DNA of 64,000 nucleotides. Source: a virus (taxonomy: Duplodnaviria; Caudoviricetes). A model generated the notes under the pieces. It made no database searches. It was not told where the DNA came from and worked only from the letters and a program-made list of their open reading frames with translations. Shown here piece by piece: positions 2,316 to 33,100 of the stretch; within the stretch, counting starts at the first letter, position 1; each line of letters opens with the position of its first letter. The DNA is taken from the IMG/VR virus record IMGVR_UViG_3300027759_000087, positions 901 to 64,900 of that record. One strand, 5' to 3'. Both the position numbers and the translations under genes were made by a program.

Positions 2316-4685
2316 TTATCCTATAGTAAATCTATTATCAGCGGCTGATGCTAATTGATTATTTCCGCTCTGTGCAATTTGGTTTCCTTCTTGCAATAGT
2401 CCACCCATTCCTGCCACGCTAGTATTTAACTTTTCTAGTAGCCCTGCAAGCATATCTTGATTCGGTAAACCTGTTGGAACAGCCGCTTCTTGTGTTGCCG
2501 GCGCTGGGCCTGTTTCTGTCTGGGCGGCCTTAGTACCTAATTCCGATGAAAGACCAGCAGTCATACCTTTAAGGCCGCCAAATAAACCGTCTGTGCTTGG
2601 CATTGACATGTTAGACAGCGGTTTAAACATATCTGTCATTCCGGAAGTAAGTGGTTTAAACATGTCCGGGCCAAACTTACCAGCAACTCCTTCTAGAGTT
2701 TTACTAACATCGGGCATCTTAATATCACCCATCATCTTAGTAATATCTGGCATTTTACTAAAATCAGGCATCTTAATATCACCCATCATCTTAGTAATAT
2801 CTGGCATTTTACTAAAATCAGGCATCTTAATATCGCCAGTTTTGTTAATTCCAGTTTCACCAGGCATTCCGTCAATTAATTTACCAACAACTGTATCTAG
2901 TTGATTTTGCATTCCGCCTGCGGCATCTTTTGGAGCTGTTGATTCTTTCTTTTTGCTAGAAGCACCGGACATTTTTGATTGTAGTGCTTCACCAATAGCA
3001 GTCCATTGCTTTTTATTAGAAACTACTTCTTCCCCGTCTAATTGCACCATCTCCCCATTAGGATCAAATTTTTCTAGGGCTTCCATCCAACCTTTAGGTA
3101 CACCTTGTGTTTCTTGTTTTACATTTCCAAGTAAATCATCTAAACCTGGACTACCTCCTAAACGTACACGAGGCGTTGGTTTTTCTACCGGTGTTCTAAC
3201 TTCTGTTGGAGTTGCTTCTTGTCCTGTTTTTGCGGCTTTGGCGCCTGGCATCATTAATACTGCTTTACTAAAGTTGTCTACTGCACCTGAAAATTTCTCA
3301 TAGCCTGCGGCCTGCAGTTTGTTAAAATTATTTCTAGCGGCAATATCAGCAGCCACAATATTTTGAAATGCTTCAGTTCCTGGTGCTTTTGCTCCGTCTG
3401 GTGTTCGACCTGAAGCATTTGCAGCCATTTGGCTTGCTTGAAAGTCTCTAACTGTTTGTACTGAGCCTGCTGTAGTAGGGCCTCGTTGTCCTAATTGCTG
3501 TGCGCCTGTTGATTGCAACTGTAAACGTGACAGTTCTTGTCCTGCAATTCTACGCATTGATTGGCCAACCGCATCATCAGTGTATTTTTGAGACTGTGCT
3601 TGCGCGGCAAATCCGCCTGGACCTTGCTGACGCATGTAAGCATCCATATTATTTTTAGCCAGTTGAAGTCGTTGTTCTCCTTCTTTTCTCTGTTCTTCTG
3701 TTTTAGCGTTTCTTAATGCTAATGCGGCTTCACCTAATGCAGTACCTGCAGGCCCAATAGCACTTAAATTATTGCCGGCTTTTTCAGTCACTACACCCAT
3801 GGCAAATATTTCGTCAATAGAACCTTGAAGTTCACTTCCTAAATCCCCGGTGACATTTTTTAATGCTCTATACGAGTCATTCAGTTCTTTGCCGCCGGAC
3901 AACAATGCCAAATTCACATCCAAGTCTTCTGATCGAACTGCATTTTCTCTCATCAGCTGGTCTGTAGTTTTATTGGTAACGGCAGCATTGTTTAACATTG
4001 CCATTGAAAATTCACCAACACTCTTAATAGCTTCTTTTCTTGATTTCTCATCTTGCAATCCAAGATTTTGACTTCTTATAAGAGCATTAGTAGCTATCTC
4101 ATTGATCTGTTCAGGAACCATTCCCATACTTTCAAACATCTTGCCAGGTTTAGACTCTCTAAAATCTTTCTGGAATGCTAAAAGCTCTTTGGCTGCATCT
4201 ACGTTATTAGATGCTAAACCAGTCATTGATCCCTGTACTTTTGCTAACTGCGTCTGGAAGTGTTGGACATTTCCTCCGCTTTCAGCTAGTTTCTTACCCC
4301 AGTCGGCAGTTTGACCTGCAGATAACATACCAGACCCAATCATCGCCTTTTGCATGTCTACGGTGCCCATGAAACTATTTTTCATGGCATCAAAACCAGA
4401 CTGGACTCCTAGTACATTACCAGTCATCTTGCCTAATCCTGCGCTAACCCCTTCTAGTACTGATCCAACTGCACTACCACCTTTTCCGGCACGTTCAAAT
4501 CCTTTCACTACACTGTCAACAGCCCCGTTAACATCTTTGGCATTTGCTCCGGTTATGCTGGCGCCGCCACTACCCCCCGGACTGCTGCCGCCAGGAGTGT
4601 TCCGTAGAGCGGAGGCAAATGTACTTGCTTGACCAGTAAGCAAATCTTTCATTTGATCGTAGGTAATTGGGTTGGCACCTGACAT
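2316..4685 (-). CDS. tape-measure-like tail protein (789 aa)
   Basis: Long Ala/Gly/Gln/Met-rich helical-looking sequence with internal repeats, adjacent to the gp26/gp51-like chaperone pair. Confidence 0.6.
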   Translation of the reverse strand: MSGANPITYDQMKDLLTGQASTFASALRNTPGGSSPGGSGGASITGANAKDVNGAVDSVVKGFERAGKGGSAVGSVLEGVSAGLGKMTGNVLGVQSGFDAMKNSFMGTVDMQKAMIGSGMLSAGQTADWGKKLAESGGNVQHFQTQLAKVQGSMTGLASNNVDAAKELLAFQKDFRESKPGKMFESMGMVPEQINEIATNALIRSQNLGLQDEKSRKEAIKSVGEFSMAMLNNAAVTNKTTDQLMRENAVRSEDLDVNLALLSGGKELNDSYRALKNVTGDLGSELQGSIDEIFAMGVVTEKAGNNLSAIGPAGTALGEAALALRNAKTEEQRKEGEQRLQLAKNNMDAYMRQQGPGGFAAQAQSQKYTDDAVGQSMRRIAGQELSRLQLQSTGAQQLGQRGPTTAGSVQTVRDFQASQMAANASGRTPDGAKAPGTEAFQNIVAADIAARNNFNKLQAAGYEKFSGAVDNFSKAVLMMPGAKAAKTGQEATPTEVRTPVEKPTPRVRLGGSPGLDDLLGNVKQETQGVPKGWMEALEKFDPNGEMVQLDGEEVVSNKKQWTAIGEALQSKMSGASSKKKESTAPKDAAGGMQNQLDTVVGKLIDGMPGETGINKTGDIKMPDFSKMPDITKMMGDIKMPDFSKMPDITKMMGDIKMPDVSKTLEGVAGKFGPDMFKPLTSGMTDMFKPLSNMSMPSTDGLFGGLKGMTAGLSSELGTKAAQTETGPAPATQEAAVPTGLPNQDMLAGLLEKLNTSVAGMGGLLQEGNQIAQSGNNQLASAADNRFTIG
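2713..2834. repeat. perfect 54-bp tandem repeat (~2.3 copies) encoding KMPDFSKMPDITKMMGDI-type units
   Basis: Unit GGCATCTTAATATCACCCATCATCTTAGTAATATCTGGCATTTTACTAAAATCA starts at 2713 and 2767, with a partial copy at 2821. Confidence 0.95.
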
Positions 4686-5797: not shown

Positions 5798-6787
5798 TTA
5801 CTTTGCCTTCTGTCTTTCTTTTTCCATATCCGCTAGCGTTCTTCCTGCTTGCGGTACGTTAGCAAATCGTGGATCAATTTTAAATTCAGCACGACCAGTA
5901 GGAGAAGTTACAATCTCAGGTCTTGCTGATATTGGTAGTTGTTTGTTAGCAGGCCCTTGACCAGCTGTTGGATTTGTTCCTTGGCTAGTTGAATCTTTAG
6001 CAGTTTGTCCTTGTGTGTCCGCGGCGGAGTCAGCATCTGCTTTTGCTGAATTATCTGGAGTTGCTGGGCTGTTATCTTTGATGCCAAATATTTTCTTAAA
6101 CTTATCTACAACTGCAATACCTGCATCACCTAATGTTTGGTCAATCATACAAGCGCCAATGATTTCTGCAACAGTATTTTTACCAGATTCTGTATTTAAA
6201 TAGGCCATTAATCCAACGGTAGCGGCGCTGTCTAAGTTGCTTAATAGTTTACCTAGGTTAGCAACTGGTGCATATGGTACTAGTCGCATACCTACAGTTA
6301 GTTGTGTCCAACCTGTGGCTAACTTTAGTGTACCAAATAAAACTGTTGAGGCTGCAATCTGCCCAACGAGTGTTGCCATACGCTGTTGACGGTACTGCTG
6401 ATATTTCTCTGGGGTCCACTCGCCTTTTTCAACCATTGCAACAGCATCTTCCATGTCGTCCCAATAGTCATAGGCCATCTTACCTAGTCCTAAACCTTTT
6501 AACACTAATAGCAATCGACCAGTGGCCTTATTAAAGGTAGCAAATCCGTCCTTAGTTACTTTTCCACCTACATCTGCAATCTTTCCTTTAGGAATTTTAC
6601 CACCTTTACTTGCTGTAGCTACGGCATCATCTGCACGACCACTAGCACGTTGAGCTAATTTTAAAATACCTTTACCAACAGGTTCTAGTACTTTACCACC
6701 CGTTCTTCCAATTATATTCATAGCAGCCGGGATAATTCCCCCAAACTCTTTTAATTCACGTTCTGTTAGTAGGTCGTTAATTCTCAT
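5798..6787 (-). CDS. putative head-packaged/ejected protein with hydrophobic segments (329 aa)
   Basis: N-terminus MRINDLLTE resembles T4-type capsid-targeting/prohead-protease leaders; GAGG SD; late promoter GATAAATA at 6807-6814. Confidence 0.5.
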   Translation of the reverse strand: MRINDLLTERELKEFGGIIPAAMNIIGRTGGKVLEPVGKGILKLAQRASGRADDAVATASKGGKIPKGKIADVGGKVTKDGFATFNKATGRLLLVLKGLGLGKMAYDYWDDMEDAVAMVEKGEWTPEKYQQYRQQRMATLVGQIAASTVLFGTLKLATGWTQLTVGMRLVPYAPVANLGKLLSNLDSAATVGLMAYLNTESGKNTVAEIIGACMIDQTLGDAGIAVVDKFKKIFGIKDNSPATPDNSAKADADSAADTQGQTAKDSTSQGTNPTAGQGPANKQLPISARPEIVTSPTGRAEFKIDPRFANVPQAGRTLADMEKERQKAK

Positions 6788-6806
6788 TTGTATTTCCTCA
6801 GTAAGA

Positions 6807-6814
6807 TATTTATC
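6807..6814 (-). promoter_or_regulatory. late promoter GATAAATA
   Basis: About 20 nt upstream of the ATG at 6787. Confidence 0.7.
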
Positions 6815-6824
6815 TACTACTTTA

Positions 6825-7287
6825 AGAAGAACTTGCGTTCTTCTGTTCTTCGCTAACGCTCGAACTTACTGTCTTTCTTTTAATTATATTATTAAACGCG
6901 AAGCGTTAAGATATTATCTAGATTGTTCAGTCACACTTAGCCCTTGCGGGCTAAAATTGAACATTATCTGAGTTGAGCAGTTCACTTAGTGTTTGCACTA
7001 CAAGCATATTGCTAGCTTAGGCGGTCATCCGGTACCTAATCGTGCTGTCTTATATGACGGCGGGCCTCTACACATACACTAACACATGCAGAGCCGTGGG
7101 CTGTTAACCCTCTTTTAGCCTTGGAAATACACACTTACAAATCAAACCGGTTATAATTTAGGCATATCCGATCAACGTCCTGTAAAGGATAGTGATTTGC
7201 TACTCTACGCCAATTAGAGTTCCTTGCCGCCACACATCAGAGCGGATTTAGGGCACTATACTATCGCCGGTGCGGGCTTATTTGGCG
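6825..7287 (-). ncRNA. putative large structured non-coding RNA (~460 nt), family not recognised
   Basis: The largest ORF-free gap in the window. At least 10 stems, two with GCAA tetraloops; many G-U pairs that work only on the - strand; a 6-bp pseudoknot (7282-7287 with loop 7208-7213). Confidence 0.7.
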
Positions 7288-7731
7288 TTATTTTGCCTGG
7301 TTTTCTTGGAGTCGTTTAATATGCGAACCGTGTACACGTACTTGAATATGACCGTTATAATATTCATTTGATTCTAATACTCTACGTGAAAATTGTTCGC
7401 GAGCCTCTATGTAACTACATTCTGCCTTGGATTTGCAGTAAAACAGTATTTCTCTTGTGAAGTTTTCTTTGCCTAGTGCGTCTATGTCTGTTTGAAGATT
7501 AGGACTGCTACCATAGTATTCCTGCCAGTCGCTGTCAATTTTACTTCTAATCTTCTTTTTTTTCTTAGTGCCGTTTTTAAGTTTTACAGTTTTATATGAG
7601 GTTTTAGAGAATTTAGCAAGTTTTTTGCCTATGTACATGCGCCCGTTAGTTATATTGGTGATGATATACACGAATCCTATACAGTCTTCGGGTAAAATTT
7701 CTACGGTTTGGGATTGATATAACCACGTCAT
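7288..7731 (-). CDS. small stand-alone GIY-YIG nuclease-family protein (147 aa)
   Basis: GFVYIITN..NGRMYIGKK, YYGSS, GKENFTREIL, conserved E (YIEAREQ) and YYN motifs, plus a Lys-rich insertion KTVKLKNGTKKKKKIRSK. Confidence 0.85.
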   Translation of the reverse strand: MTWLYQSQTVEILPEDCIGFVYIITNITNGRMYIGKKLAKFSKTSYKTVKLKNGTKKKKKIRSKIDSDWQEYYGSSPNLQTDIDALGKENFTREILFYCKSKAECSYIEAREQFSRRVLESNEYYNGHIQVRVHGSHIKRLQENQAK

Positions 7732-7736
7732 GCAAG

Positions 7737-8000
7737 TTAGTTATCACTATCAGTTCCCTCCCGAGCTTCCTTTTGAGCCTTACGTTTTGCCTTTTGTTTT
7801 TCCCAGTCTACGTCTTTCCACTTGCGCCACTCTTGCACATGTATACGTCGAGCAGAGCATATCCTACGAATTTCACTCATCCAGAACCGAACGTCCATCC
7901 CTGCACGTTTGGTACCTTCTGCTAGCCAACGTTGATTTGCCTTAAAGTATTCCTTAAAAGCATCCATTAGTTGTGAGTGTAATTCCTCGTCCTGGTGCAT
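7737..8000 (-). CDS. small basic protein resembling the Hc1 histone-H1-like family
   Basis: The pattern EGTKRAG..VR...SEIRR....RR..VQE recalls the Hc1-type G.K.AG.RAR helix pair; basic C-terminus. Confidence 0.5.
   Translation of the reverse strand: MHQDEELHSQLMDAFKEYFKANQRWLAEGTKRAGMDVRFWMSEIRRICSARRIHVQEWRKWKDVDWEKQKAKRKAQKEAREGTDSDN
7738..7745 (-). promoter_or_regulatory. possible variant late promoter GATAACTA just upstream of the GIY-YIG gene
   Basis: One mismatch to GATAAATA; lies 6 nt before the ATG, which would give a nearly leaderless transcript. Confidence 0.4.
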
Positions 8001-8500
8001 TATCCTACCTTATAGTACGCAACGCCATCTGTTGCATGTATTTTAATTGATTCTCTATGTCTAGGGAGCTCACTCATTCCTATGTTCAGTGGTAACATTA
8101 GATCAGTTTTATCTAATGAAAAATAAACTTTCTTACAGCCAAACGCCTGTGTTGATTCATGTACTACACGATGATGCGGATGACCGTATTCACCTTCTTC
8201 ATTGTGTGTTAATATTAAATCGTAGCCTATTGTTGCTCTACGCAGAGCCCTGATAGCATCAAACTTATCCCATGTGAGCAAACTATCCGTACCTAAATCC
8301 CTGCCGTGATCTTTGAATCCTAAAAACTCAGTATTAACACCACGCTGCCGCCAGTACCTAGCAATTTCACGACCACGCTTGTGCCAGCGCCAACAGGTTA
8401 GATACACAATGTTCCATTCGTATTCTGGATGTGCATCCATAAACGCACTGGCAAATATAACACAATCATCCGGATGAGCTACTAAGGCAATTGCTTTCAC
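8000..8500 (-). CDS. PIG-L/LmbE-family N-deacetylase
   Basis: AHPDD metal motif near the N-terminus and THN..GEYGHPHH downstream. Confidence 0.85.
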   Translation of the reverse strand: MKAIALVAHPDDCVIFASAFMDAHPEYEWNIVYLTCWRWHKRGREIARYWRQRGVNTEFLGFKDHGRDLGTDSLLTWDKFDAIRALRRATIGYDLILTHNEEGEYGHPHHRVVHESTQAFGCKKVYFSLDKTDLMLPLNIGMSELPRHRESIKIHATDGVAYYKVG

Positions 8501-20600: not shown

Positions 20601-21154
20601 CATACAAGCCATTGCCTCCAAGCAGTGATGAACTAAACAATACATTTGCTCCAAAATTAAATTTAATTAAAACTATCAGTGATGAAATCATCTATCATCC
20701 TGTAAAGTATAAAGTTTTATTTGGTGCTAAAGCTGAAAAGAATTTACAAGCACAATTTAAAGTAGTTGTTAATAAAACAGTAGTAGTGTCTGATAACGAT
20801 ATAAAAACACAAATTTTATCTGCAATTAATAATTTCTTTGCGTTAGGTAATTGGGACTTTGGAGATACTTTTTATTTTACAGAGATGGCAAGTTATGTCA
20901 CATCTCAAGTAAGTCCCGCAATTGTTAACTTTGTTATAGTTCCAACCGCCAGCTCATTATCATTTGGTGGATTGTTTGAAATTACAGCGGGCCCTGATGA
21001 AATTTTTATTAGCGGAGCAACCATCATCAATATTGATATAGTAACATCTATGACTTCTTCAACTATTAATAGTTTAGGAACTATCACTTTAACATCAAAT
21101 GCTATTGCAGTGCAAGCATTAACAAGCTCAGCTTACGGATCATCTAATGTCTGA
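17672..21154 (+). CDS. gp6: baseplate wedge protein (gp6-like)
   Basis: DFENIR..MIDYL, LIDLIAY, RENFL..A.RRDSVLRLARMLSY, FSDGTFG, TQNRMITAEDY. Confidence 0.88.
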   Translation: MSATDRQNRLLVAKDWTKVYQSFRNADFQSYDFENIRRSMIDYLRQNFPEDFNDYIESSEYLALIDLIAYLAQSIAFRVDLNARENFLELADRRDSVLRLARMLSYNAKRNQASKGVLKFTSVQTTQNVLDSNGRNLSNQIVGWNDSSNNNWYDQFISVLNAAFPANQQFGNPSDSATIYNVPTEQYKFNSSNTAVPVYGFTKTVNGSRMEFEVTSTTFSGQDYIYEETPKLGNPMACIYKNDGQGSASNNTGFFFYFTQGTLNNGAFTISQPTASESIDLDSTNINDTDVWLYKIDQQGIESELWTPVPNLTGNNIIYNSLNKSIKNIYKVITRAGDRISLSFSDGTFGTTPLGTFSVYYRTSNGLSYTINPQDVRGVSLTIPYISSLGQAEELTITLGLQSSVDNSSATESNDTVKDNAPATYYTQNRMITAEDYNISPLSVSQEIAKIKAVNRSASGISRYLDLIDPTGKYSKTNLFADDGVLYQEIYTVNTTFTYASRTDIQGIIINKIFDILAEPDLRNFYYSKFTNISTTLLDISWYNVTNDLSFSSGYLGSTIDKKPYLLSAYTNTALRYVSVGSLVKFEAPLDADGSEQVFDRSNGNALIKKTAIAKSNTSDYIWAEIVTLAGDGTAAGTGVLSDGSGTVSLNDTIPTGAIATRVVPVWKTIIGSTVITTMTDLIANNTPFGLRYDINTQSWQLIFQSNLDSSGPFSLGKQGDISNLQLDASWLLLFVTDTITYTVSTRKLRYIFESAAQLRFYFDNDERVYDNVSGTLLTDSINVLSVNTQPGLAIPFTFDQKFKITNQFIGLDGYVDTKKIVLTFSDKDNTGIVQDPDTFNNIVVPATTFSLSANYIVLEKYTVEAGQDDYRYVTNNDSKMIVLQTQPTNFAQYNNGQYFYFIDVDTVAVYNSATSELTPSLDYKVFLGRDNLKFQYTHNASDTHRIDPGISNIMDVYVLTNSYDLLFRQWLNDVITYKPLPPSSDELNNTFAPKLNLIKTISDEIIYHPVKYKVLFGAKAEKNLQAQFKVVVNKTVVVSDNDIKTQILSAINNFFALGNWDFGDTFYFTEMASYVTSQVSPAIVNFVIVPTASSLSFGGLFEITAGPDEIFISGATIINIDIVTSMTSSTINSLGTITLTSNAIAVQALTSSAYGSSNV

Positions 21155-24100
21155 TAATAAAAACCCAACAGGTTCAAATAATTACTCAATGGTAGATTTG
21201 CTACCAAATTACTATCGCACCGATGCTAATAATAAATTTATCCAAGCAACTGTCGATCAGCTGTCACAAAAAGGCACTGCTAAAAAAATTACTGGCTATA
21301 TTGGCCGTCAAAATGCAAAATCGGCTAATGGGTCTGATGTGTATATTACATCCCCAACTAGTATTCGTCAAACTTATCAGTTAGAGCCGTCTGTAGTTAT
21401 TAACGACAGCACAGGAAATACTACCTTCTTTAAAGATTATCAGGATTATATTAATCAATTAAAAGTATTTGGAAGTAATGTTGCTAATCACGAAAATATT
21501 AATCGCCAGGAATTTTATTCTTGGGATCCCCACATTGAATGGGATAAATTTGTCAACTTTCAAAACTATTACTGGCTTCCTTACGGCCCAGATTTAATTA
21601 CTATTACCGGTCAGAAATTAAATGTTACTAGTACATATACTGTATCTATATCGCAATCTGCTACGTTGCAGAAAGAATATTTGTTTACTCCAAACGGCTT
21701 AGATCGTAATCCTTCTTTAACACTATATCGCGGCCAAACTTATTATTTTGAAATTGATAGTCCTGGGGAACCGTTTAGTATTAAAACTGCTCGTACTCCA
21801 GGCACCTCAGACAGATATACTGATGGAAATTATGTAGATAAGTTTGCAGTTGAATCAGGAATACTTAAATTTACAGTTCCAATTGCTGGCCCAGATAATT
21901 TATATTACATAAGTGAACGCAATGCTGACTTAGGCGGCCTAATTAAATTTTTAGATATTACTGAAAATAGTTATATTAATGTTGAAACAGAGTTGTTAGG
22001 CAAAAAAACATATTCACTTTCTGACGGCACGCCTTTAAGTAACGGAATGAAAGTTGCGTTTAGCGGTAACGTAATTCCTGCACAATATAGTAAGGGAGAA
22101 TATTATGTAGAAGGCGTTGGCACTGCAATTGCATTAGTACCAACTACAGTTCTTGAAATTGTCAGTACATATACTCAAGATAAAGCAGTTAATTTTGATT
22201 CAACACTGTTTGATCAATACCCGTTTGCGGCCGCAACTTCATTTGCTGGAATACCAGATTATATTACTATTAATAAAACTAGCAAGGATCAAAATCCGTG
22301 GAGTAGGTACAATCGTTGGTTTCATACGGATGTTATTACTGCCAGTGCTAAATTTAATAATAAACTAGCAGACTTTGATCAAGCTAGTCGAGCAGTCCGT
22401 CCAATTATTGAATTTGAAGCAAATTTAAAATTATTTAATTTTGGTACAGTTGCAATTGCCGACGTTGATTTAGTCGATGATTACACTACGGATGTGTTTA
22501 GTATCATTGAAGGTTCAGCTGGATATAGCGTTGACGGTATCCAATTAACACAAGGTATGCGTATTGCGTTTATAGCAGATCCAGATATCACTGTAAAGAA
22601 TAAAATTTTTAAAGTTTCTTTTATCAACATTGCAAATTCAGGCATTGGTGTTCCGCAAATACGATTAATATTAGATGAAACACCTACTACTAATTCAAAT
22701 ATGTTAGTAAGACAAGGTGTTAAGTATCAGGGTTATAGTTTTTGGTTCAACGGCTCAAGTTGGATATACGGGCAACAAAAAACAATTGTTAATCAAGCAC
22801 CGTTGTTTGATTTGTTTGACAAGTCGGGGTTAAGTTTTGCTGATTATAGCGGCTCAACGTTTAAAGGTACACAACTGTTTTCTTACAAAGTTGGAAATAC
22901 AATTGCCGATACTGTTTTAGGATTTAGTTTAAGTTATCAAAATATTAATAATATTGGAGATATACTATTTTCTTTTAATTTATTAACTGATTTGTTTAAT
23001 TACAAAGAAAACGAAATTTTAACTACAAAACTTGTTAACACAGGGTTCTTATCTAAGTTAACTTTTGTTAATTCTAGTGTATATGTTAATGGATGGCAAA
23101 CTAGTCTTGTAACCCGTTACCAACCAGCTATTAGAATTTATAAAAATTCTGGACTAACCAACAATTTTGCATTGGATATCTATGATAATAAAACAGATTT
23201 ATTAGATTTAGAAATCCGATTATATGTCAACGGCCGCCGACTTAATAAAGCAGAATGGAAATTATTAGATGCAGTAAATTATAAAAAAATTATATTATCT
23301 AAAGATATTTCTAAAACTGATGTATTGACAATTAAAGCGTTTGCTAAACAGCCAATTAATAATAACGGCTATTATGAAATTCCAATTAATCTACAAAATA
23401 ATCCGTTAAACAACGATATAGGTAACTTTACCTTAGGCGAAGTAACTGACCATGTAAATTCTATTATTGATAATATTCAAGACAGGTATGTAGAAACATC
23501 ACCGGGTGTAAACAATTTAAGCGATTTAGGAAATATTACTCCTTACGGTACAAAATTTGTACAGCATAGCGGCCCTGCAAGTTTAGCACTTTATCATATT
23601 ACAAGTGAACAGAATAATGTTATTCGAGCTTTAGAAAAATCTCGAGACGATTACGGCAAATTTAAACGTAGTTTTTTACTTGCGGCTAAAAATCTAAAAA
23701 CTGATACTGATGTTGTTAGCCAGGTTAATACAATACTTAAAACTTTATCTGCAAATAAAACACAAAAATCGTCGTATTATTTTAGCGATATGGTACCGTT
23801 CACAGGAAAAAAAGTGACGGAATATCTAGTTGTCGATACTAGTAATAAACTATATCCGTTATCAACAACGTTTGATAATACCATTATTTCAAACAAAGCA
23901 GTAAGTGTATACTTTAATGGAACTCAATTATTATACGGCATTAATTATTTTTTTACAGCAGACGGTTATGTAGAACTTAACAATACGGTATCAGTAGTCA
24001 ACGGTGACAAAGTTGTAATCTTTGAATACGACAGTACGGATGGTTGTTTTATTCCTCCAACTCCTACTAAATTAGGCTTGTGGCCAAAATTTACTCCAAA

Positions 24101-27100
24101 GATATATGTGGATAATAGCTATCTAACACCCCAAACTATGATACAAGGGCACGATGGAAGTCAGGTATTGGCATACGGTGACTATCGAGATGCTATTATT
24201 TTAGAATTAGAAAAAAGAATTTATAATAACATACAAACCAAATACGATCCTACAATATTTGATATCTATAATATTATTCCGGGTTACCACAGAACAAGTA
24301 ATTTTACATTAGATGAATTTAATAAATCTTTAGCCTCTGGATTTTATAAATGGGCTGGAATTACTGGAAGAGATTTTTCTAAACAAGTTGGGTTTAACAA
24401 AGCTAATACATTTACATTCAATTATAAAGGAAACACAGCCCCAGACGGAAGAAGCCTACCAGGCTATTGGAGAGGAGTTTATCGTTGGATGTATGACACC
24501 GATAAACCACATTTATTTCCGTGGGAAATGTTAGGTTTCAGTGAAGAACCAACTTGGTGGCAAGCAAAGTATGGCCCAGCACCTTATACTAGTAACAACC
24601 TTGTAATGTGGAAAGATTTAGCCGCAGGCGCAGTTAGCCAACCAGGCATGCCAGTTGTGTATCGACCACAATTTGTTAGACCAACATTATTAAATCATGT
24701 GCCGGTTGACGAAAGTGGAAATTTAATAAGCCCAGCACTTGCCAGATTGTCAAACGGAGTATTTAATGCCGATATTCAAAGTCATTATGTATTTGGAGAT
24801 GTTGCACCTGTTGAATCAGCATGGCGTAGAAGCAGTTACTTTCCTTTTAGTACACTGATAGCTTCTATGATTTTACAACCTGCACAAACTTTAGCAACAG
24901 GTTTAGATATATCTCGTACTGTAAGAAATTTATGTGGACAGTTGGTATACAAAGATACTAATTTAAGAATACGACCGCAAGATATTGCTTTGCCTAGTAT
25001 CTATTCTAGCACCTCTAGAGTTTATACTTCGGGTATTATCAATTATTTGATAGAATCTTTAATCTCAAACAATTATAACTATTACCAAGACTATCAATAT
25101 AATTTAACTAATCTAAATATAAATCTATCTTATAGAATTAGTGGGTTTTCAAGTAAAGAAAACTTTAATTTAATCCTTGATAGTAAAAATCCTGCGGCCA
25201 GTGGCAATGTTTTTGTGCCGCCTGAGAATTATAAACTTGTATACAACAGTTCAAGCCCTATTGGTAAATTATCCTATAGCGGCATTATTGTTTCCAAAGT
25301 TGATACTGGTTACGAAATCAAAGGCTATAGTTCTTCGGAATCATTTTTTAATTACTATTCTTATAGACAAGAACTTGGCCCACAAATTAATGTAGGCGGA
25401 ATCAGTTCAAGTTTTGTAACGTGGACTGCTGGCAAAACGTATGTGCTAGGACAAATTGTTTTATATAGTGGCAAATATTATCGAACACTATATGCTGTTA
25501 CACAAGATACGTTTAATATTAATGCATTTGCAATATTACCGTCACTGCCAATAGCAGGCGGAGTAACTGCAATTTTTAGACAAGCATGGGATACAACTAC
25601 AACTAATGTACTGCCTTATGGTTCTGTATTAGCAGACGTACAACAAGTAGTTGATTTTATATTAGGTTACGGCGCATATTTAAAAAATCAAGGTTTTGTA
25701 TTTGATGATTTTAATAATGCCTTATCTCAAGTTAGTAACTGGGAAACAACAGCTAAAGAATTTATGTTCTGGACCACACAAAAATGGTCTGCCGGACAAA
25801 ATCAATGGGAACAATGGATTCCTAATATTGCAATTGCCTATGGAGACATTGTAAAATATCAAGGAGAATTCTACAAAGCTATACAGAATGTTCCAGCACA
25901 ACAAGTATTCCTTGAAGAGTTTTATTTCAAGTTGGATGGATTAAGCACTGTAGGAAGTCCAGTTATTAGTTTAAGTCCTGCCGCTAATAAATTGACATTT
26001 GTTTCGCCATTGTCAGTCGCAGAAGATATTAATAATCCTTTTAATGATTATGAAATATTTCAAGTAGATGGTACTAGCTTATTACCAATGGATATTAATT
26101 CGTCTAGACAAGGAAACCTTGTGACGTTTTCTCCGGCTAATAACGGCACCATCTATAATGCTAGTTTTTATCTAGTGCAAAAAGAACAAGTTTTAATTTT
26201 AGATAATGCAACGGTGTTTAATGATATTATCTACCATCCAGAAAGCGGATACAGACAAGAGCGTATTAAAGTTTCTGGATTTGTAAGTAGCCAGTGGTTT
26301 GGTGGATTTGAAGTTCCTGGATTTATCTTTGATAGAGCAGATATTGCTCCGTGGAAATCGTGGACTGATTATTCAGCAGGCGATATAGTATACTATCAAG
26401 GTTATTACTATAGTGCCAATGCTTTCTTAGCAGGATTTTCAGAGTTTGATCCTAACAACTGGTCTCAAATTAAGAAACCAGTCCCAACACTATTGCCTAA
26501 TTGGTCATACAAAGCTGGACAATTTGAAGATTTTTACAATTTAACAGAAGATAATTTTGATGTTGGACAACAAAAAATTGCCCAACATTTAGTAGGTTAT
26601 CAAAAACGTCAATATTTAAACAATATTATTCAAGATGATATTAGTGAGTTTCAATTTTATCAAGGAATGATTCGAGAAAAGGGTACACAAAACAGTCTTA
26701 ATAAACTGTTTGATGTATTAAGTGCTGATAACAAAGAAAGCATAACATTCTTTGAAGAATGGGGCATTCGTGTAGGTCAGTACGGCGCAAGTCAGGCATA
26801 CGAAGCAATTGAATTTTTAGTAACGCAACCAGATATAACTAAAAATTCACAAGGGTTCTACTTAACGTTATTACCAGAACGTTCTACAAATTTTAATTTA
26901 AATATTCCTGCTAACAAGGTGTATCTAAAACCGCAAGGGTATGATGCCAATCCGTTCCCAGTTAATAACAAGCAGAAATTTTTCTTAAGATCTAGCGGAC
27001 ATGTACAAGCTAGTACTGATACAGTACAAATTAAATCAATATCTGATTTATCAACACAAGATATTACAAAATTTAAAGATGGTACATATATCTGGGTAGC

Positions 27101-30100
27101 ATTTGAAAAAACAAGTTGGAACATTTACAGATTTACATCTGTAAAATTAATGCCAGTTGATGCAGTTTATAACAATGATAAAACAATTACAATAAAAACG
27201 TCTAATTTTGTAGATCCTAGTATAGTTGGATATTATATTGGAATTCAGCAAGTATCGTTTGCAGGATTTTATAAAGTAGTTGCGGCTGAATTAACAACAC
27301 TAACAATTGATGCATCTAATTTTTCGTCAAACAGCGACTGGCCAACCGCAGATAACATTAAATCTAATTTACAAATTTTTAACCTATATCCGGTAAGAAC
27401 TAATTCAATTAACAATGCAAATAATATTATTAAGGCTTATACAGAATTAGGAGACAAAATTTGGGTCGACGATGACGGCACAGGTAAATGGGCAACCTTA
27501 AAACTAACCTCTGTATTTGCCCAATCAGAAATTAGAAAACCTTACACAGCTCCAGATACTGCCCATGGCCGTATAGTAACATTAAGTGCTAGCGGATTAA
27601 TTGCGGCAGTAGCAACACAATCGGGCGAAGTAATTATCTACGAAAAGCAAGGTAACCGATGGATATTTAGACAAATAATTAATCGTCCGTTTATGTCGCA
27701 ATATGAGTTTGGAGTAGATCCAAACCCAGCTATCACATTTGCCGAAACAATGGCAATGAGTTCAGACGGACAGTTTTTAGCAGTTGGCAGTCCCCAAGCA
27801 GGCAAACTGGCCACACGAGTATTACCTAATGGAAACATTGTCTGTGATAAATCTAGTTTAAACGCATCTACTACACTTACGGGCGCAGTTAGTTTATACC
27901 AAAAAGATGAATTTAATGAATTTATATTACTGTTTACTATTGCTAGTGGTGACAATATATCGGGACAACAATTTGGATCATCGTTAACATTTGGAACAAA
28001 TACGTTGTTTGTTGGTTCAAAAGGCAATACTAATTACGGAACACAAGCAACAGTCTTTGAATTAAGATATATTGTTGGAATTGATAGTAATACAACTACA
28101 ACTAATACAAACGCTGACGGCGAAACAGCCAATGCTATTGTAACAGTAACTTACGATGCTGGTAATGCGTTTTCAACTAGTAATAGTTCGGCAGATGTAT
28201 CATTTGATGGCGGCTCAGCTCTTACAATTGAAAGTACAGCCGACAGATGGGTAATTGTACGCCCAGGTATAAGTATAACCAACGGATCTAGCATTGGCTT
28301 TGGATTATCTTTATCCGTATCAGCAGATAATTCTGTACTGGCAATTGGCGCACCTCTCGGAGGCTCTGTATACATTTATAGATTAAACACTAACAATGTT
28401 TATAGATTATCGCAAACAATTAACGGTCCGACCCAAATAGTAACTGACGCAACTACTGTTGACGGAGTTGTATCATTTAACGCATTAACTTTAAGTGGCG
28501 GATATGGATTTAAAACAGCCGTTAACGAATTTACAAATACACTACTGACAAATTTAAATACTGCCGGCGGCACTGGAACTGGATTAATTGTAGATGGAAC
28601 GTTAGATTCAAACGGAGTAATTCAAAAAGTTAATATTAGAGAACCAGGAAAAAATTATCAAGTTGGTGATACTATCACAATAGTAAATCCTATTGGAAAC
28701 GGTTCTGTATTAAGTTTAGCATGGTCAACAAAAACATACAACGAAGGAATTCAATATAAGACCGGCGATACTGTGACATTAGGCGGTGTTAACTACGTTG
28801 CTATAGCCAATACACCAACTATTGTTGGATCGTTAACATTAATACCAAAAAATCCAGCAACAGAGGCATCATTTTGGTCTGTAATTTCTTTTGCTAATGC
28901 ACTAGTTGGAACTGACATCAGTGTAAGTACAACAACAGGTTCTGGATCAGGATTAAAAATTAAATTAGCAACTGCAACAACATCAGGAGCAGTAGCAGGT
29001 AATATTGTAATTCCAGTTACTACAACTGATAACTTTGCACCAGGGCAATCCGTATTTTCAGCAACCTCACCAACAGCATTTGCGGCCGGCACATACATTA
29101 CACAAATTAATAATGCATCATTTGTATCAACATTATCCGATAATGTTTTAACTGTCACTAGTATTACTGCTGGTAATAATAATGTTGTTGCAAAAATATT
29201 TGGATCTATAATTGGTACTACTCTTACCGCTGAAGAAATTGCCGGCGGCAGAATATTACCGGGAATGGTATTAACAGGAACAGGAGTTCCAGAAAATATT
29301 TTTATTATCAGCGGATCTGGCAATACATGGACTATTAATAATCCTGCTTCTGTTTCTAAAGTACAAATTACAGCAACATTGTACGAAACAATTACTCCAG
29401 GAATGCAACTAATAAATCCTGCGCTTGATACTCCTGCAACGTTTACAGGAGCAATCTCTACCAAAGGAACAGCAACTTTAACTGGCGCAGTTACTACTGT
29501 GATTGGTGGAGTATCATCTTTATATAATGCTACAATTAGCGGTACTACACTAAAATTTGATACTGTTACCGGCGGTGACCCTGTTGTTCCAGGAATGACA
29601 TTGACAGGGACAGGTGTTACTGCTGGAACAAAATTATTATATGGAAGCGGAACAACTTGGATAGTTAATACTAGTCAAACTGTTGCATCTCCGGTTACCA
29701 TCACAGCCACATTAACTACAGCATCAATTGACGGTTACAACTTAACATTTTCAAAATTTACCGGCGCATCTTTGCAACCCGGTGCAATATTAACCGGCGG
29801 CAGTGTGGTTGCCGGTACAAAAATAGTAGGCGGCTCTGGAACTTCGTGGACTGTTGATATTAATCAAACAGCAACTTGTACTACTGCTACCCTTCCTTAC
29901 GGATCGATTAATGGAAATACATTAACATTTACTGCTAAAACAGGCGCAGATATTGAAATTGGAATGGCAGTATCTGGGTTAACAACTGTGCCAGGCACAT
30001 TTATAACAGGCGGTTCAGGCACTACTTGGACTGTTAATATTAATCAATCAACTATTTGTAGCCAAGTTACATTGCAAGCGTTCTTAATTGATGCACAAAT

Positions 30101-33100
30101 TATCAACACCACACTAACTTTTACAAGTAGTACTGGAGCAGATTTAATAGCAGGAATGGTGTTAACTGGCACTAATGTGATATCAGGAACTTATGTTATT
30201 AGTGGCGCAGAGTCTGAGTGGATAGTAAGCACTTCACACGGCTCTAGCGTTGTTCCAACAACAATAACAGCAACACCAGTGTATCTTACTGTTAGCGGAA
30301 CAATTACTGGATCGGTGTTACTAGGCCAACAACTAGGCGGATCAGGAGTAGCTAGCGGCACAACTATAGTTGCCTCAGGTACAGGCATTGGCAAAGCTGG
30401 AACTTACTTGGTTACACCAATACAAACTATTGGAGCTAATCCGTTTACCAGTCGTTACATTTATACAAGACCTACAATCATTCCAGGTATTACATTATCC
30501 GGAGCAACTATATCTGGTACAACATTAACATTTTCTAATAATACTGGTGGCGCCATACATGCTGGAATGTTAGTAACAGGAAGCAATGTGTTGCCAGGAA
30601 CTGCTATTGTGTCTGGATCTTCAACTAGCTGGGTAGTGAGTATAAGTCAAACTGTTTCTGCTACTACTTTATTAGTTACTGGTACAGGAACTGGCGGCAC
30701 TGGCACATACATTATAGATCAAGTATTGCCTGTTGGTATAAATGTAACAAGAGGGATTAGTCTAGTTCTTAATACTGGTTTAGCAAATACATTGTCCGGC
30801 GCTGGAGAAGTTACAAGCCTAACAATTTCTAATTACGGTACAGGATATGCTATAAACGATCTAGTACAATTTAACATATCTGGTGCTTCTAATTTAATTA
30901 GAACGCAAATTGCAGAAATTACTAGCAACGCTACAATTACTGTCGCTTCGATAAGCGATGGCAGTATTACTAAAGATGCTTCACAATTTGCTTCTAGTAT
31001 AAAACTTAACACTACCGGAGAATACTTGGCAATTGGATCCCCACTATATTCTGGAATGACTGGGTTTGACGGCCAAGTATTAGTTTACAGTAATAACACA
31101 AGTACTCAGAATACTTACAGCCTTTTCCAAGAAATTACAAATCCACATTCTGCTTCTGGAGATTTATTTGGCAAAGCAGTTGACTTTTCAACTGACGACA
31201 AAACTTTACTAGTTTACAGTCCCGGAGCCGACTCATTTATATTAACTACATTCGATGCAGATAATTTACAAACTAGTTTTGATGCTAATTCTTTACAATT
31301 TAAAGAATTGACTTTAAATTCAGGCAAAATTGATGTATATACTCGTTATCTAACTAATTGGATTCTTGGAGAATCATTGTACAATGCAAATACAACTACA
31401 GACGGCTTTGGACAAAGTTTTGCAATTGCCAACGATACTATACTAGTAGGCGCTCCCCATGAATTTGATGTGTTAAATGATGAGCAAAATAGTATTCCTA
31501 TCAAACAACTTAACTCTGGTAAAGTGTATTCGTATGAGCGCAATGCTAATAGTTTAAACTGGAATCCTATACACGAGCAAGCAGATTTAATTGACTTAAC
31601 TAAAATTAAACAAGTATTCTTGTATAACAAATCTACTAGCAAACTTATAAAATATCTAGATGTAATAGATCCTAATTTTGGAAAAATTGCAGGATCTGCC
31701 GAACAAGAAATTAGCTATAAAACATTTTATGATCCTGCAATTTACACTGTAGGAAATAGTGCAGTTAATACTGATGCTGGTTCCGCATGGACAACATCAA
31801 ATGTGAGTAAATTGTGGTGGGATTTGCGAACTGCAAAATTTGTAGATAGTCATGCAACAGATATTGTTTACCGAAATAGTACACTAAACATGCTAGCTAC
31901 TGGCGCTAGCATTGACATTTACGAATGGGTTGAAACTAAATTGACTCCAACAGAGTGGAAATCACAAGCAGACACTTCAACCGGATTAACTAAAGGCATC
32001 AGCGGCCAACCGTTGTACACAGATGCATATAGCATTAAACAGCATTATAATACTTTTACAAAAGTATACGAAAACACTTATTATTTCTGGGTCAAAAATA
32101 AAGTACTAGTGCCTGAAGTAGAAAACAGATCAACATCTGCGTATTCAGTATCTAGATTAATTGGAAATCCTAGAGGAGAGAATTATTCTTATGCAAGTAT
32201 AACCGGAAAAAATTCTTTTAATCTAGTAAACTGTCAAAATTTGTTAGCAGGCGACGATGTTGTATTGGGTATTGAATATTGGGTAGTGGATAATACAACG
32301 CAAAATACACATGCACAGTGGAAATTAATTGATAATAATCCTAGTACTAATTTACCATCCGCTATTGAAAATAAATGGTTTGATAGTTTGTGCGGAAAGG
32401 ACCAAGCCGATAGACCAGTTCCAGATTTAGGATTACCTGCTAAATTACGATTTGGTATTGAAAGTCGTCCTCGACAAAGTATGTTTGTTAATAATTATGA
32501 AGCTTTAAAACAATTTGTAGAGCGTACTAATAGAATATTAATTAACAATCAAATTGTTGAACAAAAAAATATATCATTACTTGATAGTTACGATGTTGCT
32601 CCGTATGCATTTACTGGAGAATATGATACCATTGTTGATACAGACGCCGAGCTAAGAGTTATTGCAGTTTCTACAGCTAAGCCGGCATTTGTTTCTCCTA
32701 TAATTACTAATGGTTCAATTACTGGAATTACAATTATCTCTGCAGGTTCAGGCTACATTAATACTCCTGCAATATCTGTATTTGGAAAAGGATCTGGAGC
32801 AAAACTAAAAGCAATTATTGATATTGCAGGACGAATTGTTGGCGTAACTATTTTAGACAGCGGCAAAGGATATACTTCAACAACAACATTAACAGTAAGA
32901 CCGTTCTCCGCGCTAGTTAAATCAGACTCTGTAGCCCATGGCAAATGGAGCATCTACGCATATACGATTAATAATATTACTAATATTAAATCGTGGACAA
33001 GAATACGTACTCAATCTTACGATGTACGTACTTATTGGAACTATGTAGATTGGTATGCTACAGGCTTTAATCAATTTACTGTAGTTGATAATGCAATAGA

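What the first reader, a model, noticed from the sequence alone, without database searches (positions are those of the whole stretch)
6825..7287. Unrecognised ~460-nt pseudoknotted RNA-like element starting at the GIY-YIG stop codon
Seen: this is the largest ORF-free gap in a tightly packed genome. On the - strand it forms many stems. ACUCUA/UAGAGU (7202-7220) has a loop UUGGCG complementary to CGCCAA, the first six nt after the stop codon (7282-7287), giving a pseudoknot. Long-range GCAAAUCA/UGAUUUGU (7193-7200 with 7137-7144) encloses UCCU/AGGA and GAUCGG/CCGGUU. Other stems: GGGUU/AGCCC (7098-7110); an 11-12 bp G-U-rich stem (7066-7093); UUAGG..CCUAA (7017-7039); UAGUG-CAAA-CACUA (6987-7000); UGUUCA/UGAACA enclosing UUAGCCC-GCAA-GGGCUAA (6924-6963); AGAAGAAC-GCAA-GUUCUUCU (6825-6844). 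The G-U pairs and GNRA loops work only on the - strand, the same strand as the nuclease gene. I see no tRNA, tmRNA, RNase P or group I core. Inference: a large structured phage ncRNA (ribozyme, scaffold or guide) that may be undescribed.
Basis: partly seen in the sequence, partly recalled or inferred. Interest (0 to 1): 0.9.

Follow-up and report, generated by a model that had tools for sequence, protein, structure and literature searches.

The report
Full-length Polynucleobacter-1 phage RNA
The gene-free 470 bases behind a small nuclease gene of this uncultured lake phage encode a real, multiply knotted non-coding RNA whose first third is a catalogued orphan motif, whose rest is uncatalogued and shows one 7-letter word twice, and whose job is still unknown.

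Summary
Window 7287-6825 (- strand) is a conserved, structured, non-coding RNA of about 465 nt. It is not wholly unrecognised: 7278-7135 is a full-length match to Rfam RF01718, Polynucleobacter-1 (68.9 bits, cut-off 37), an orphan motif from 2010. The other ~310 nt match no Rfam family. They are conserved in relatives and fold into a covariation-supported core with two more pseudoknots (90.7% of cells paired, 71.8% in shuffles, 0 of 500 as high). One of its hairpins is wrong and one holds only in a subset. Two 7-nt words (6969-6963 and 6919-6913) are identical in 101 of 102 distinct relatives although four positions vary. The RNA follows a SegE-like, catalytic-domain-only GIY-YIG gene at a fixed place in T4-like freshwater phage contigs. 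A full-length homologue lies in Polynucleobacter chromosomes without that nuclease. No nuclease residue tracks the words. My best reading is an autonomous trans-acting RNA that shows one word twice to an unknown reader; the nuclease is a neighbour. This scan has already described the same RNA on many other genomes, and I agree with those notes.

The parts
7288..7731 (-). GIY-YIG nuclease gene, 147 aa, catalytic domain only. It is the fixed upstream neighbour of the RNA.
   Evidence: Pfam PF19835 SegE_GIY-YIG, E 1.4e-32, residues 3-129 on profile 1-123 of 123. Among 111 distinct relatives the mean pairwise identity is 0.74, and the GIY, YIG, Arg, Glu and Asn motif residues are invariant or nearly so.
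7282..7287 (-). 5' strand of pseudoknot 1 (CGCCAA), directly after the UAA stop. It pairs with loop bases 7213-7208.
   Evidence: at least 5 contiguous bp in 43 of 45 diverse relatives, as 29 distinct duplexes. It lies outside the Rfam match, which starts at 7278.
7135..7278 (-). 5' domain, which is the Rfam RF01718 Polynucleobacter-1 motif. Helices: 7273-7269/7257-7253; 7245-7242/7230-7227; hairpin 7220-7215/7207-7202; long-range 7200-7193/7144-7137 enclosing 7188-7187/7180-7179 and 7173-7168/7150-7145.
   Evidence: 68.9 bits against a cut-off of 37, model positions 1-141 of 141. RNAalifold finds compensatory pairs.
7121..7134 (-). Variable A/U-rich linker between the two domains.
   Evidence: Low conservation.
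6986..7120 (-). Knotted core of the 3' domain. It holds the conserved AAGGCUAAAAGAGGG; hairpin 7110-7108/7100-7098; stem 7095-7089/7070-7063 continued by 7088-7083/7076-7071; pseudoknot 2, 7082-7077 with 6991-6986; 7058-7055 with 7027-7024, knotted with 7038-7035/7021-7018; and 7045-7042 with 6998-6995.
   Evidence: on 98 distinct rows: 33 pairs, 90.7% of cells paired against 71.8% in shuffles (0 of 500 as high) and 31-49% when slid; 598 cells changed on both sides against 181. An unbiased scan gave the same helices.
6962..6973 (-). Word unit 1, ACUC-AGAUAAU-G. The 7-nt word is 6969-6963.
6938..6953 (-). Hairpin UAGCCC-GCAA-GGGCUA between the two word units.
   Evidence: (45-53 of 53 per pair).
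6911..6923 (-). Word unit 2, AUCU-AGAUAAU-A. The 7-nt word is 6919-6913, identical to unit 1.
   Evidence: Identical words in 101 of 102 distinct full elements and in 18 of 18 loci that lack the 5' domain.
6895..6907 (-). Small hairpin with a CUUCG loop.
   Evidence: stem of at least 4 bp in 64 of 91 relatives, 57 distinct stems.
6866..6894 (-). A/U-rich linker of variable length.
   Evidence: Indels and low conservation.
6845..6865 (-). Hairpin GUUC-GA-GC-GUUA-GC-GAA-GAAC.
   Evidence: outer stem of at least 4 bp in 72 of 94 relatives, many distinct stems. This hairpin is shared with the bacterial homologues.
6825..6844 (-). Terminal hairpin AGAAGAAC-GCAA-GUUCUUCU, the likely 3' end of the RNA.
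   Evidence: 7-8 bp in 101 of 102 relatives, 30 distinct stems. The simple scan did not call it an intrinsic terminator.
6807..6814 (-). GATAAATA, a late-promoter-like word of the next gene. It is not part of the RNA and marks the RNA's outer limit.
   Evidence: Partly conserved in relatives just after the terminal hairpin. The reading as a T4-type late promoter rests on a recalled consensus.

Best explanation
Window 7287-6825 (- strand) encodes the full-length form, about 465 nt, of the RNA whose first 141 positions Rfam lists as Polynucleobacter-1.

Shown: it has two domains. The 5' domain is the Rfam motif, closed by a pseudoknot to the six bases after the nuclease stop codon. The uncatalogued 3' domain has a doubly knotted core, two copies of one 7-nt word with a hairpin between them, and three terminal hairpins.

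Inferred: it is made as the tail of the early gp46-to-GIY-YIG transcription unit and ends at the last hairpin, just before the next gene's own late-promoter-like word. It then acts in trans as a stable folded RNA. Its rigid core displays the same single-stranded word twice to one reader that binds as two copies, either a dimeric protein or a duplicated or symmetric nucleic acid.
For: Identity:
- RF01718 scores 68.9 bits against a cut-off of 37 over the whole model.

The RNA is real:
- The whole gap is conserved at the DNA level in 32-51 of 80 related loci, while the downstream gene matches in 0 of 80.
- Core helices and two pseudoknots are 90.7% paired, against 71.8% in shuffles (0 of 500 as high) and 31-49% when slid.
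- Pseudoknot 1 is seen in 43 of 45 diverse relatives.
- The terminal hairpins covary.
- GNRA-type and CUUCG loops and G-U pairs fit only the - strand.

The RNA is autonomous and separable:
- RF01718 is over its cut-off in 18 of 151 genomes of the Polynucleobacter genus sample. Eight such loci I looked at have no GIY-YIG match. Two that I read through are full-length homologues, with the same 5' pseudoknot, a diverged core and the same 3' hairpins.
- There the RNA sits beside a divergent DUF6641 gene (4 of 4 tested) and upstream of a 188-198-aa tyrosine recombinase (3 of 3 tested).
- In phages, genes are inserted between the nuclease and the RNA in 9 loci with a gap of 600 nt or more.
- Eight loci carry the 3' core without RF01718.

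The word is shown twice:
- The words are identical in 101 of 102 distinct elements, with four variable positions and seven haplotypes, and in 18 of 18 further loci.
- The bacterial homologues keep the rule with a different word.
- No other RNA column tracks the words.

- None of 74 variable GIY-YIG columns tracks word position 1 or position 5 (best normalised MI 0.22 and 0.27). In phylogenetically independent pairs the protein mostly does not change.

Expression hint:
- Contigs from four freshwater metatranscriptome runs cover the nuclease gene and the RNA of relatives. One contig spans 6959-8003.
Against: - No transcript ends, strand or abundance are known. The RNA-library data are contigs and could hold DNA.
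- The nuclease and the RNA are neighbours in nearly every phage locus with enough sequence. Of 161 sequences, 150 have a 3'-domain hit; 10 of the 11 misses are cut 295 nt or less after the nuclease gene, and only L074 truly lacks the RNA. A functional tie is therefore not excluded.
- Gene order is conserved in all these contigs, so the association may also be simple inheritance.
- The test for co-change with the nuclease has low power: 10 and 6 supported independent pairs.
- The terminal hairpin is not followed by a U tract, so the 3' end is a guess.
- The count of word changes on the tree (at least 33) could be inflated by recombination of a small block.
Confidence: 0.5

Rival explanations
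1. The RNA is the partner of the neighbouring minimal GIY-YIG nuclease. The protein has no DNA-binding domain, and the RNA supplies targeting or scaffolding; for example, the two identical words would read the two half-sites of a symmetric target.
For: - The nuclease ends 18 residues after its catalytic domain.
- The RNA starts at its stop codon.
- The two are adjacent (less than 260 nt apart) in 123 of 150 sequences with a 3'-domain hit.
- In bacteria the same RNA sits next to a short tyrosine recombinase that matches only the catalytic part of Xer-type profiles.
Against: - The bacterial homologues have no GIY-YIG.
- Genes are inserted between nuclease and RNA in 9 loci.
- The words show only about seven to nine haplotypes, so they are not freely programmable.
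- No nuclease column tracks the words.
- The word is not enriched elsewhere in the 64-kb window: 14 matches against 8.5 expected, using a pattern that fitted unit 1 only.
- Conserved synteny alone could explain the adjacency.
Confidence: 0.07
2. It is a cis-acting untranslated region. Either it is a 3' UTR that controls stability or translation termination of the nuclease and gp46 operon message, or it is a leader for the downstream gene, as the 2010 catalogue marked the motif as possibly cis-regulatory.
For: - Pseudoknot 1 abuts the stop codon, so a terminating ribosome would open it.
- The table in Weinberg 2010 marks the motif 'y' under cis-regulatory (passage seen).
- The RNA lies upstream of a gene on the same strand.
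Against: - About 465 nt with three pseudoknots and invariant loops is far more than known UTR elements need.
- The downstream gene is unrelated across relatives: 4 of 80 by tblastn and 0 of 80 by blastn. It also has its own promoter-like word after the terminal hairpin.
- The RNA keeps its form where the upstream gene differs, as in bacteria.
Confidence: 0.12
3. It is a ribozyme, for example self-cleaving or self-processing, of a class not yet described.
For: It has a multi-pseudoknotted core with many invariant unpaired bases, and its size is in the range of large ribozymes.
Against: No Rfam ribozyme family matches, even at E up to 10. It interrupts no gene, so it is not an intron. No conserved cleavage-site signature was found, and no joint in the RNA contigs is supported by more than one contig.
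Confidence: 0.08
4. The conservation acts on DNA rather than RNA: an origin, iterons or recombination sites, with the two identical words as protein-binding repeats on duplex DNA.
For: Direct repeats that stay identical are typical of DNA-binding sites. A tyrosine recombinase lies beside the bacterial copies.
Against: Hundreds of compensatory changes keep RNA helices, including G-U pairs that are mismatches on the other strand. Tetraloop-type hairpins and pseudoknots have no DNA rationale. This does not exclude an extra DNA role for the two words alone.
Confidence: 0.03

Closest known systems
Polynucleobacter-1 RNA motif (Rfam RF01718; Weinberg et al. 2010, Genome Biol 11:R31, PMC2864571; I saw the table passages only)
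   Same: Window 7278-7135 matches the whole 141-position model well above the cut-off. The habitat is the same: fresh water, and Burkholderiales for the bacterial copies.
   Different: The catalogued motif is only the first third. The 5' pseudoknot strand (7287-7282) and about 310 nt of knotted 3' domain with the duplicated word are not in the model. The main carriers found here are T4-like phage contigs. The motif's function was and is unknown.
Large ornate bacterial and phage RNAs GOLLD, ROOL and OLE (Nature 2025, PMC12286853; I saw the search listing and the start of the abstract only)
   Same: It is a long, highly structured, pseudoknotted RNA of unknown function, found in phages and mobile islands and first noticed by comparative genomics.
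   Different: There is no sequence or structure match to those Rfam families. Homo-oligomer formation, reported for those RNAs, is untested here. The only hint is that AUCUAGAU in unit 2 is self-complementary.
HEARO / IscB and TnpB omega RNAs (recalled, no call): orphan structured RNAs next to a nuclease gene that turned out to be guides
   Same: It is a structured RNA directly beside a small nuclease gene and was first catalogued as an orphan motif.
   Different: The nuclease here is GIY-YIG, not HNH or RuvC. There is no variable guide end, the RNA also occurs without the nuclease, and no co-change with the protein was seen.
T4 Seg-type free-standing GIY-YIG endonucleases, such as SegB inside the tRNA gene cluster (recalled, no call)
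   Same: A GIY-YIG gene of the SegE Pfam family lies beside an RNA gene in a T4-like genome, so the nuclease might favour inheritance of its neighbourhood.
   Different: This protein lacks the C-terminal DNA-binding part that Seg proteins have (recalled), and it sits at one conserved place in every relative I fetched.

Membership tests
Rfam RF01718 Polynucleobacter-1 | Covariance-model score at or above the curated gathering score (37 bits) | tested here: met
   68.9 bits, E 1.6e-12
Rfam RF01718 Polynucleobacter-1 | Match over the whole model with its consensus helices | tested here: met
   Model positions 1-141 of 141. The helices are seen in the printed alignment, with a few non-standard pairs marked. 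Compensatory changes occur in relatives.
Rfam RF01718 Polynucleobacter-1 | Occurrence in fresh water and in Burkholderiales (as in the 2010 table) | tested here: met
   DNA runs that hold the stretch are labelled freshwater or lake metagenomes. 18 of 151 genomes of the Polynucleobacter genus sample are over the cut-off.
Group I intron | Match to the Rfam group I model, and interruption of a conserved gene | tested here: not met
   No such match at E up to 10 in 6600-7500. The flanking genes are separate ORFs, and the downstream one is not conserved.
tRNA / tmRNA / RNase P RNA | Detection by ARAGORN or the Rfam models | tested here: not met
   0 genes. The only RNase P line is 8.8 bits against a cut-off of 97.
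Guide RNA of an RNA-guided nuclease (OMEGA-like) | Obligate pairing of the RNA gene with its nuclease gene | tested here: not met
   Full-length homologues in Polynucleobacter chromosomes have no GIY-YIG. Genes are inserted between the two in 9 phage loci.
Guide RNA of an RNA-guided nuclease (OMEGA-like) | A variable segment that matches target sequences | tested here: inconclusive
   The words have few haplotypes. No enrichment of the word in the window (pattern fitted unit 1 only). Targets outside the window were not searched.
Seg-type homing endonuclease cassette | GIY-YIG catalytic domain | tested here: met
   PF19835, E 1.4e-32; motif residues conserved
Seg-type homing endonuclease cassette | C-terminal DNA-binding domain | tested here: not met
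   The domain covers residues 3-129 of 147, and no second Pfam family matches.
Seg-type homing endonuclease cassette | Sporadic presence among close relatives (empty sites) | not tested
   All loci were fetched through the nuclease or through the RNA, so relatives that lack both could not appear.
Intrinsic terminator (for hairpin 6844-6825) | G+C-rich stem followed by a U tract | tested here: not met
   Not among the terminator-like sites of the simple scan. The tail is UUAAAG.

The most novel reading that the evidence does not exclude
The RNA is a specificity module for domain-minimal DNA enzymes. Its two identical exposed words would read the two half-sites of a symmetric DNA target for whichever catalytic-only enzyme is encoded beside it: the GIY-YIG nuclease in phages, the short tyrosine recombinase in Polynucleobacter islands. 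That would be a new kind of RNA-directed DNA cutting or joining.
Probability: 0.04. Interest if true: 0.95.

Novelty: new variant of a known kind. Interest (0 to 1): 0.62.

Why it matters
Long, intricately folded bacterial and phage RNAs are few, and each class solved so far has taught something new. This work has three results.

- **A catalogued orphan motif is only a third of the RNA.** The 141-nt motif is the first third of a roughly 465-nt RNA with three pseudoknots. The RNA is common in large T4-like lake phages and is also present in islands of an abundant freshwater bacterium.
- **Two words must stay identical.** Two 7-nt words stay identical while they change. Base pairing within the RNA does not explain this. 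It points to a reader that can be sought by pull-down or genetics.
- **The nuclease-guide idea becomes testable and currently looks unlikely.**

For annotation, the Rfam model could be extended, and several MAGs carry these phage contigs by mis-binning.

Tried and rejected
- **Phage record search.** blastn of the gap against 50,697 phage records gave no match.
- **Downstream protein.** The search for related loci with the 329-aa downstream protein found no relative.
- **Nuclease structure relatives.** PDB sequence search with the nuclease gave nothing below E 0.1, so no tie to a solved enzyme.
- **Pseudoknot 1, first two tests.** Duplex energies and RNAfold-defined loops were muddied by stem bases and by related non-cognate pairs. 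I replaced them with a column-anchored test.
- **Hairpin around word unit 1.** By eye it is present in many lineages of alignment A4. My crude automated test did not beat shuffles (4.0 against 3.98), so I do not claim it.
- **Promoter and terminator scan.** It gave counts near chance. One sigma-70-like site lies inside the nuclease ORF (7538-7510), and I give it no weight.
- **Metatranscriptome contigs.** Parts without cover, single-contig joints and depth differences are not used as evidence. Small word shares of RNA runs are not used for habitat.
- **Word pattern in the window.** The pattern fitted unit 1 only, so unit 2 is not listed. It showed no clear enrichment.
It said that 12 of 68 nuclease loci lack the RNA. 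nhmmer finds the 3' part of the RNA in 11 of those 12.
- **Literature.** Only Weinberg 2010 names the motif in substance. Two other papers only hold the accession (listing seen). A search for GIY-YIG with structured RNA and two further searches showed no description of the long form.
- **Supplements.** PMC10690425 predicts 29-151-nt structured RNAs from IMG/VR (passages seen).

Full report
**What is there.** The window is an IMG/VR virus record of 64.9 kb, and CheckV estimates it at 18% of a genome. It carries T4-type genes: a gp20-like portal, a baseplate hub and a gp46-like SbcC nuclease subunit. On the - strand a 147-aa ORF (7731-7288) matches the Pfam family SegE_GIY-YIG over the whole profile and has no further domain. 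The next ORF on that strand starts at 6787. The 500 nt between them is the largest gap between neighbouring ORFs of 90 aa or more.

**Known part.** Rfam finds one family in the whole window at curated thresholds. It is RF01718, Polynucleobacter-1, at 7278-7135 on the - strand, with 68.9 bits against a cut-off of 37 and all 141 model positions matched. A permissive scan of 6600-7500 adds only chance-level lines with E of 6.8 or more. ARAGORN finds no tRNA or tmRNA. The motif comes from Weinberg et al. 2010 (PMC2864571). Its table lists the motif as a likely RNA, possibly cis-regulatory, from Burkholderiales and fresh water or estuary (passages seen).

**The rest is conserved and folded.**
- A search with the nuclease protein found at least 595 viral stretches that encode relatives, and I kept 80 loci.
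- By blastn the whole gap down to about 6826 is conserved in 32-51 of the 80 loci. The downstream gene is conserved in none.
- RF01718 is over its cut-off in 40 of the 50 contigs I searched, once per contig and just after the nuclease gene.
- On 98 distinct sequences, my structure for 7110-6986 has 33 pairs in 7 helices, two of them pseudoknots.
  - 90.7% of cells are paired, against 71.8% in column shuffles (0 of 500 as high) and 31-49% when the partners are slid.
  - 598 cells changed on both sides, against 181 in shuffles.
- An unbiased scan of all column pairs on 107 sequences gave the same helices.
- The three 3' hairpins covary.
- The single sequence alone folds only slightly better than shuffles (z -1.88), so the case rests on the relatives.

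Most hold; details are under the observation check.
- The pseudoknot between the loop at 7213-7208 and the six bases after the stop codon is supported in 43 of 45 diverse relatives, through 29 different duplexes. It lies outside the Rfam match.
- The proposed hairpin at 7000-6987 is wrong. Its bases form pseudoknot 2 with the loop at 7082-7077 and a 4-bp helix with 7045-7042.
- The outer stem UGUUCA/UGAACA is lineage-specific.

**An unexplained rule.** Two units share a 7-nt word: ACUC-AGAUAAU-G (6973-6962) and AUCU-AGAUAAU-A (6923-6912).
- In 101 of 102 distinct full elements the two words are identical, although four positions vary (A/G 53:49, G/A 95:7, A/G 73:29, U/A 94:8). This gives seven haplotypes.
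- In 18 of 18 further loci without a 5'-domain hit the words are again identical and add two more haplotypes.
- Two Polynucleobacter chromosome homologues keep the rule with another word and differ from each other at one letter, changed in both copies.
- On a maximum-likelihood tree built with the words masked, the haplotype changes at least 33 times. Recombination of a small block could inflate this count.
- No other column of the RNA follows the words. The best is U7057C with word position 2 (normalised MI 0.67) in one small group. Internal base pairing therefore does not explain the identity.

**Context and the nuclease.**
- Gene order is fixed: gp46, small ORFs, nuclease, RNA, a variable gene of roughly 300 aa, then the baseplate hub on the other strand. 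By tblastn gp46 is found in 71 of 80 loci, the hub in 51, and the downstream protein in 4.
- The nuclease is well conserved (mean pairwise identity 0.74 among 111 distinct proteins) and its catalytic motifs are intact.
- Of 161 sequences, 150 have a 3'-domain hit. Ten of the 11 misses end 295 nt or less after the nuclease gene, and one (L074) truly lacks the RNA.
- The parts are separable. Nine loci have 600 nt or more between nuclease and RNA. Eight loci carry the 3' core without RF01718.
- In prokaryote genomes the 3'-core pattern hit only six MAG contigs. Five carry the phage nuclease gene, with gp46 too where the stored stretch reaches it, and the sixth starts inside the RNA. I read these as mis-binned phage DNA.

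**Bacterial copies.**
- RF01718 itself is over its cut-off in 18 of 151 genomes of the Polynucleobacter genus sample, including single-contig chromosomes.
- Eight such loci that I looked at have no GIY-YIG match.
- There the RNA lies beside a divergent DUF6641 gene (4 of 4 tested) and upstream of a 188-198-aa tyrosine recombinase (3 of 3 tested).
- Reading two of them through shows full-length homologues.

In phylogenetically independent pairs that differ in the word, the protein columns mostly do not differ. Power is low, with 10 and 6 supported pairs.

**Expression.** Contigs of four freshwater metatranscriptome runs from four studies cover the nuclease gene and the RNA of relatives at 80-99% likeness. 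One 1,960-nt contig spans 6959-8003. Contigs give no strand and no ends, and DNA carry-over is possible, so this is only a hint.

**Reading.**
- Shown: a real RNA of about 465 nt with three pseudoknots; membership of its 5' third in RF01718; a conserved place behind the nuclease gene in phages; presence without that gene in bacteria; and the identity rule of the two words.
- Inferred: it is transcribed with the early operon, ends at the last hairpin, and works in trans by showing one word twice to a two-copy reader.
- The rivals (guide or partner of the nuclease, cis-acting UTR, ribozyme, DNA site) are ranked in the Rival explanations section.

**Earlier notes of this scan** describe the same RNA on many other genomes and reach the same reading. 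I read them after my own analysis, and they did not change my scores.

Noticed in passing
L253-L256 (regions of G165, G078 and G176); also L244-L252: In Polynucleobacter chromosomes the RNA sits in a recurring three-part module: a divergent DUF6641 / phrog_31551 gene (145-161 aa), the ~480-nt RNA, then a 188-198-aa tyrosine recombinase that matches only the catalytic part of Xer-type profiles. One chromosome has two copies 18 kb apart.
   Followed up: partly
L232-L243, L249: Phage contigs carrying gp46, the GIY-YIG gene and this RNA are binned into MAGs labelled Flavobacteriales, Bacteroidetes, Polynucleobacter and Bifidobacterium. This is probably mis-binning. The Polynucleobacter case, together with the shared RNA, is a weak hint at the host.
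   Followed up: partly
L128, L130, L144, L154, L159, L176, L184, L189 and L016-type loci: There are variant architectures. Some loci have the 3' core with both words but no RF01718 domain. In others only the last ~100 nt of the RNA is detectable, about 380-650 nt after the nuclease gene. I did not study what fills the space.
   Followed up: partly
window 7057 with 6968 and 6918: The rare G-to-A change at word position 2 (7 of 101 sequences) co-occurs with U7057C (6 of those 7), which breaks a U-A pair of the 7058-7055 helix. The sequences may be one small clade, so this may be shared descent.
   Followed up: no
window 21147-39008 (+): A single ORF of 5,953 aa lies among the tail and baseplate genes.
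   Followed up: no
window 7288-7731 (-): The best PHROG for the nuclease, phrog_447 (E 9.5e-37), is annotated 'NAD synthetase'. This looks like a carried-over misannotation, because Pfam and four other PHROGs say GIY-YIG or homing endonuclease.
   Followed up: no
window 8000-8500 (-): A PIG-L family (GlcNAc-PI de-N-acetylase-like) gene lies between gp46 and the nuclease gene.
   Followed up: no
window 2316-4685 (-): The 789-aa protein next to the portal gene has a tandem peptide repeat (GDIKMPDFSKMPDITKMM, about 2.5 copies) and no Pfam or PHROG match.
   Followed up: no
alignment A3, 5' tails of many relatives: Many relatives have a conserved (U)AGGC(U/A)C word 10-15 nt upstream of the pseudoknot strand. 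It often holds the nuclease stop codon and could pair with the 3' side of the pseudoknot hairpin as an alternative structure.
   Followed up: no
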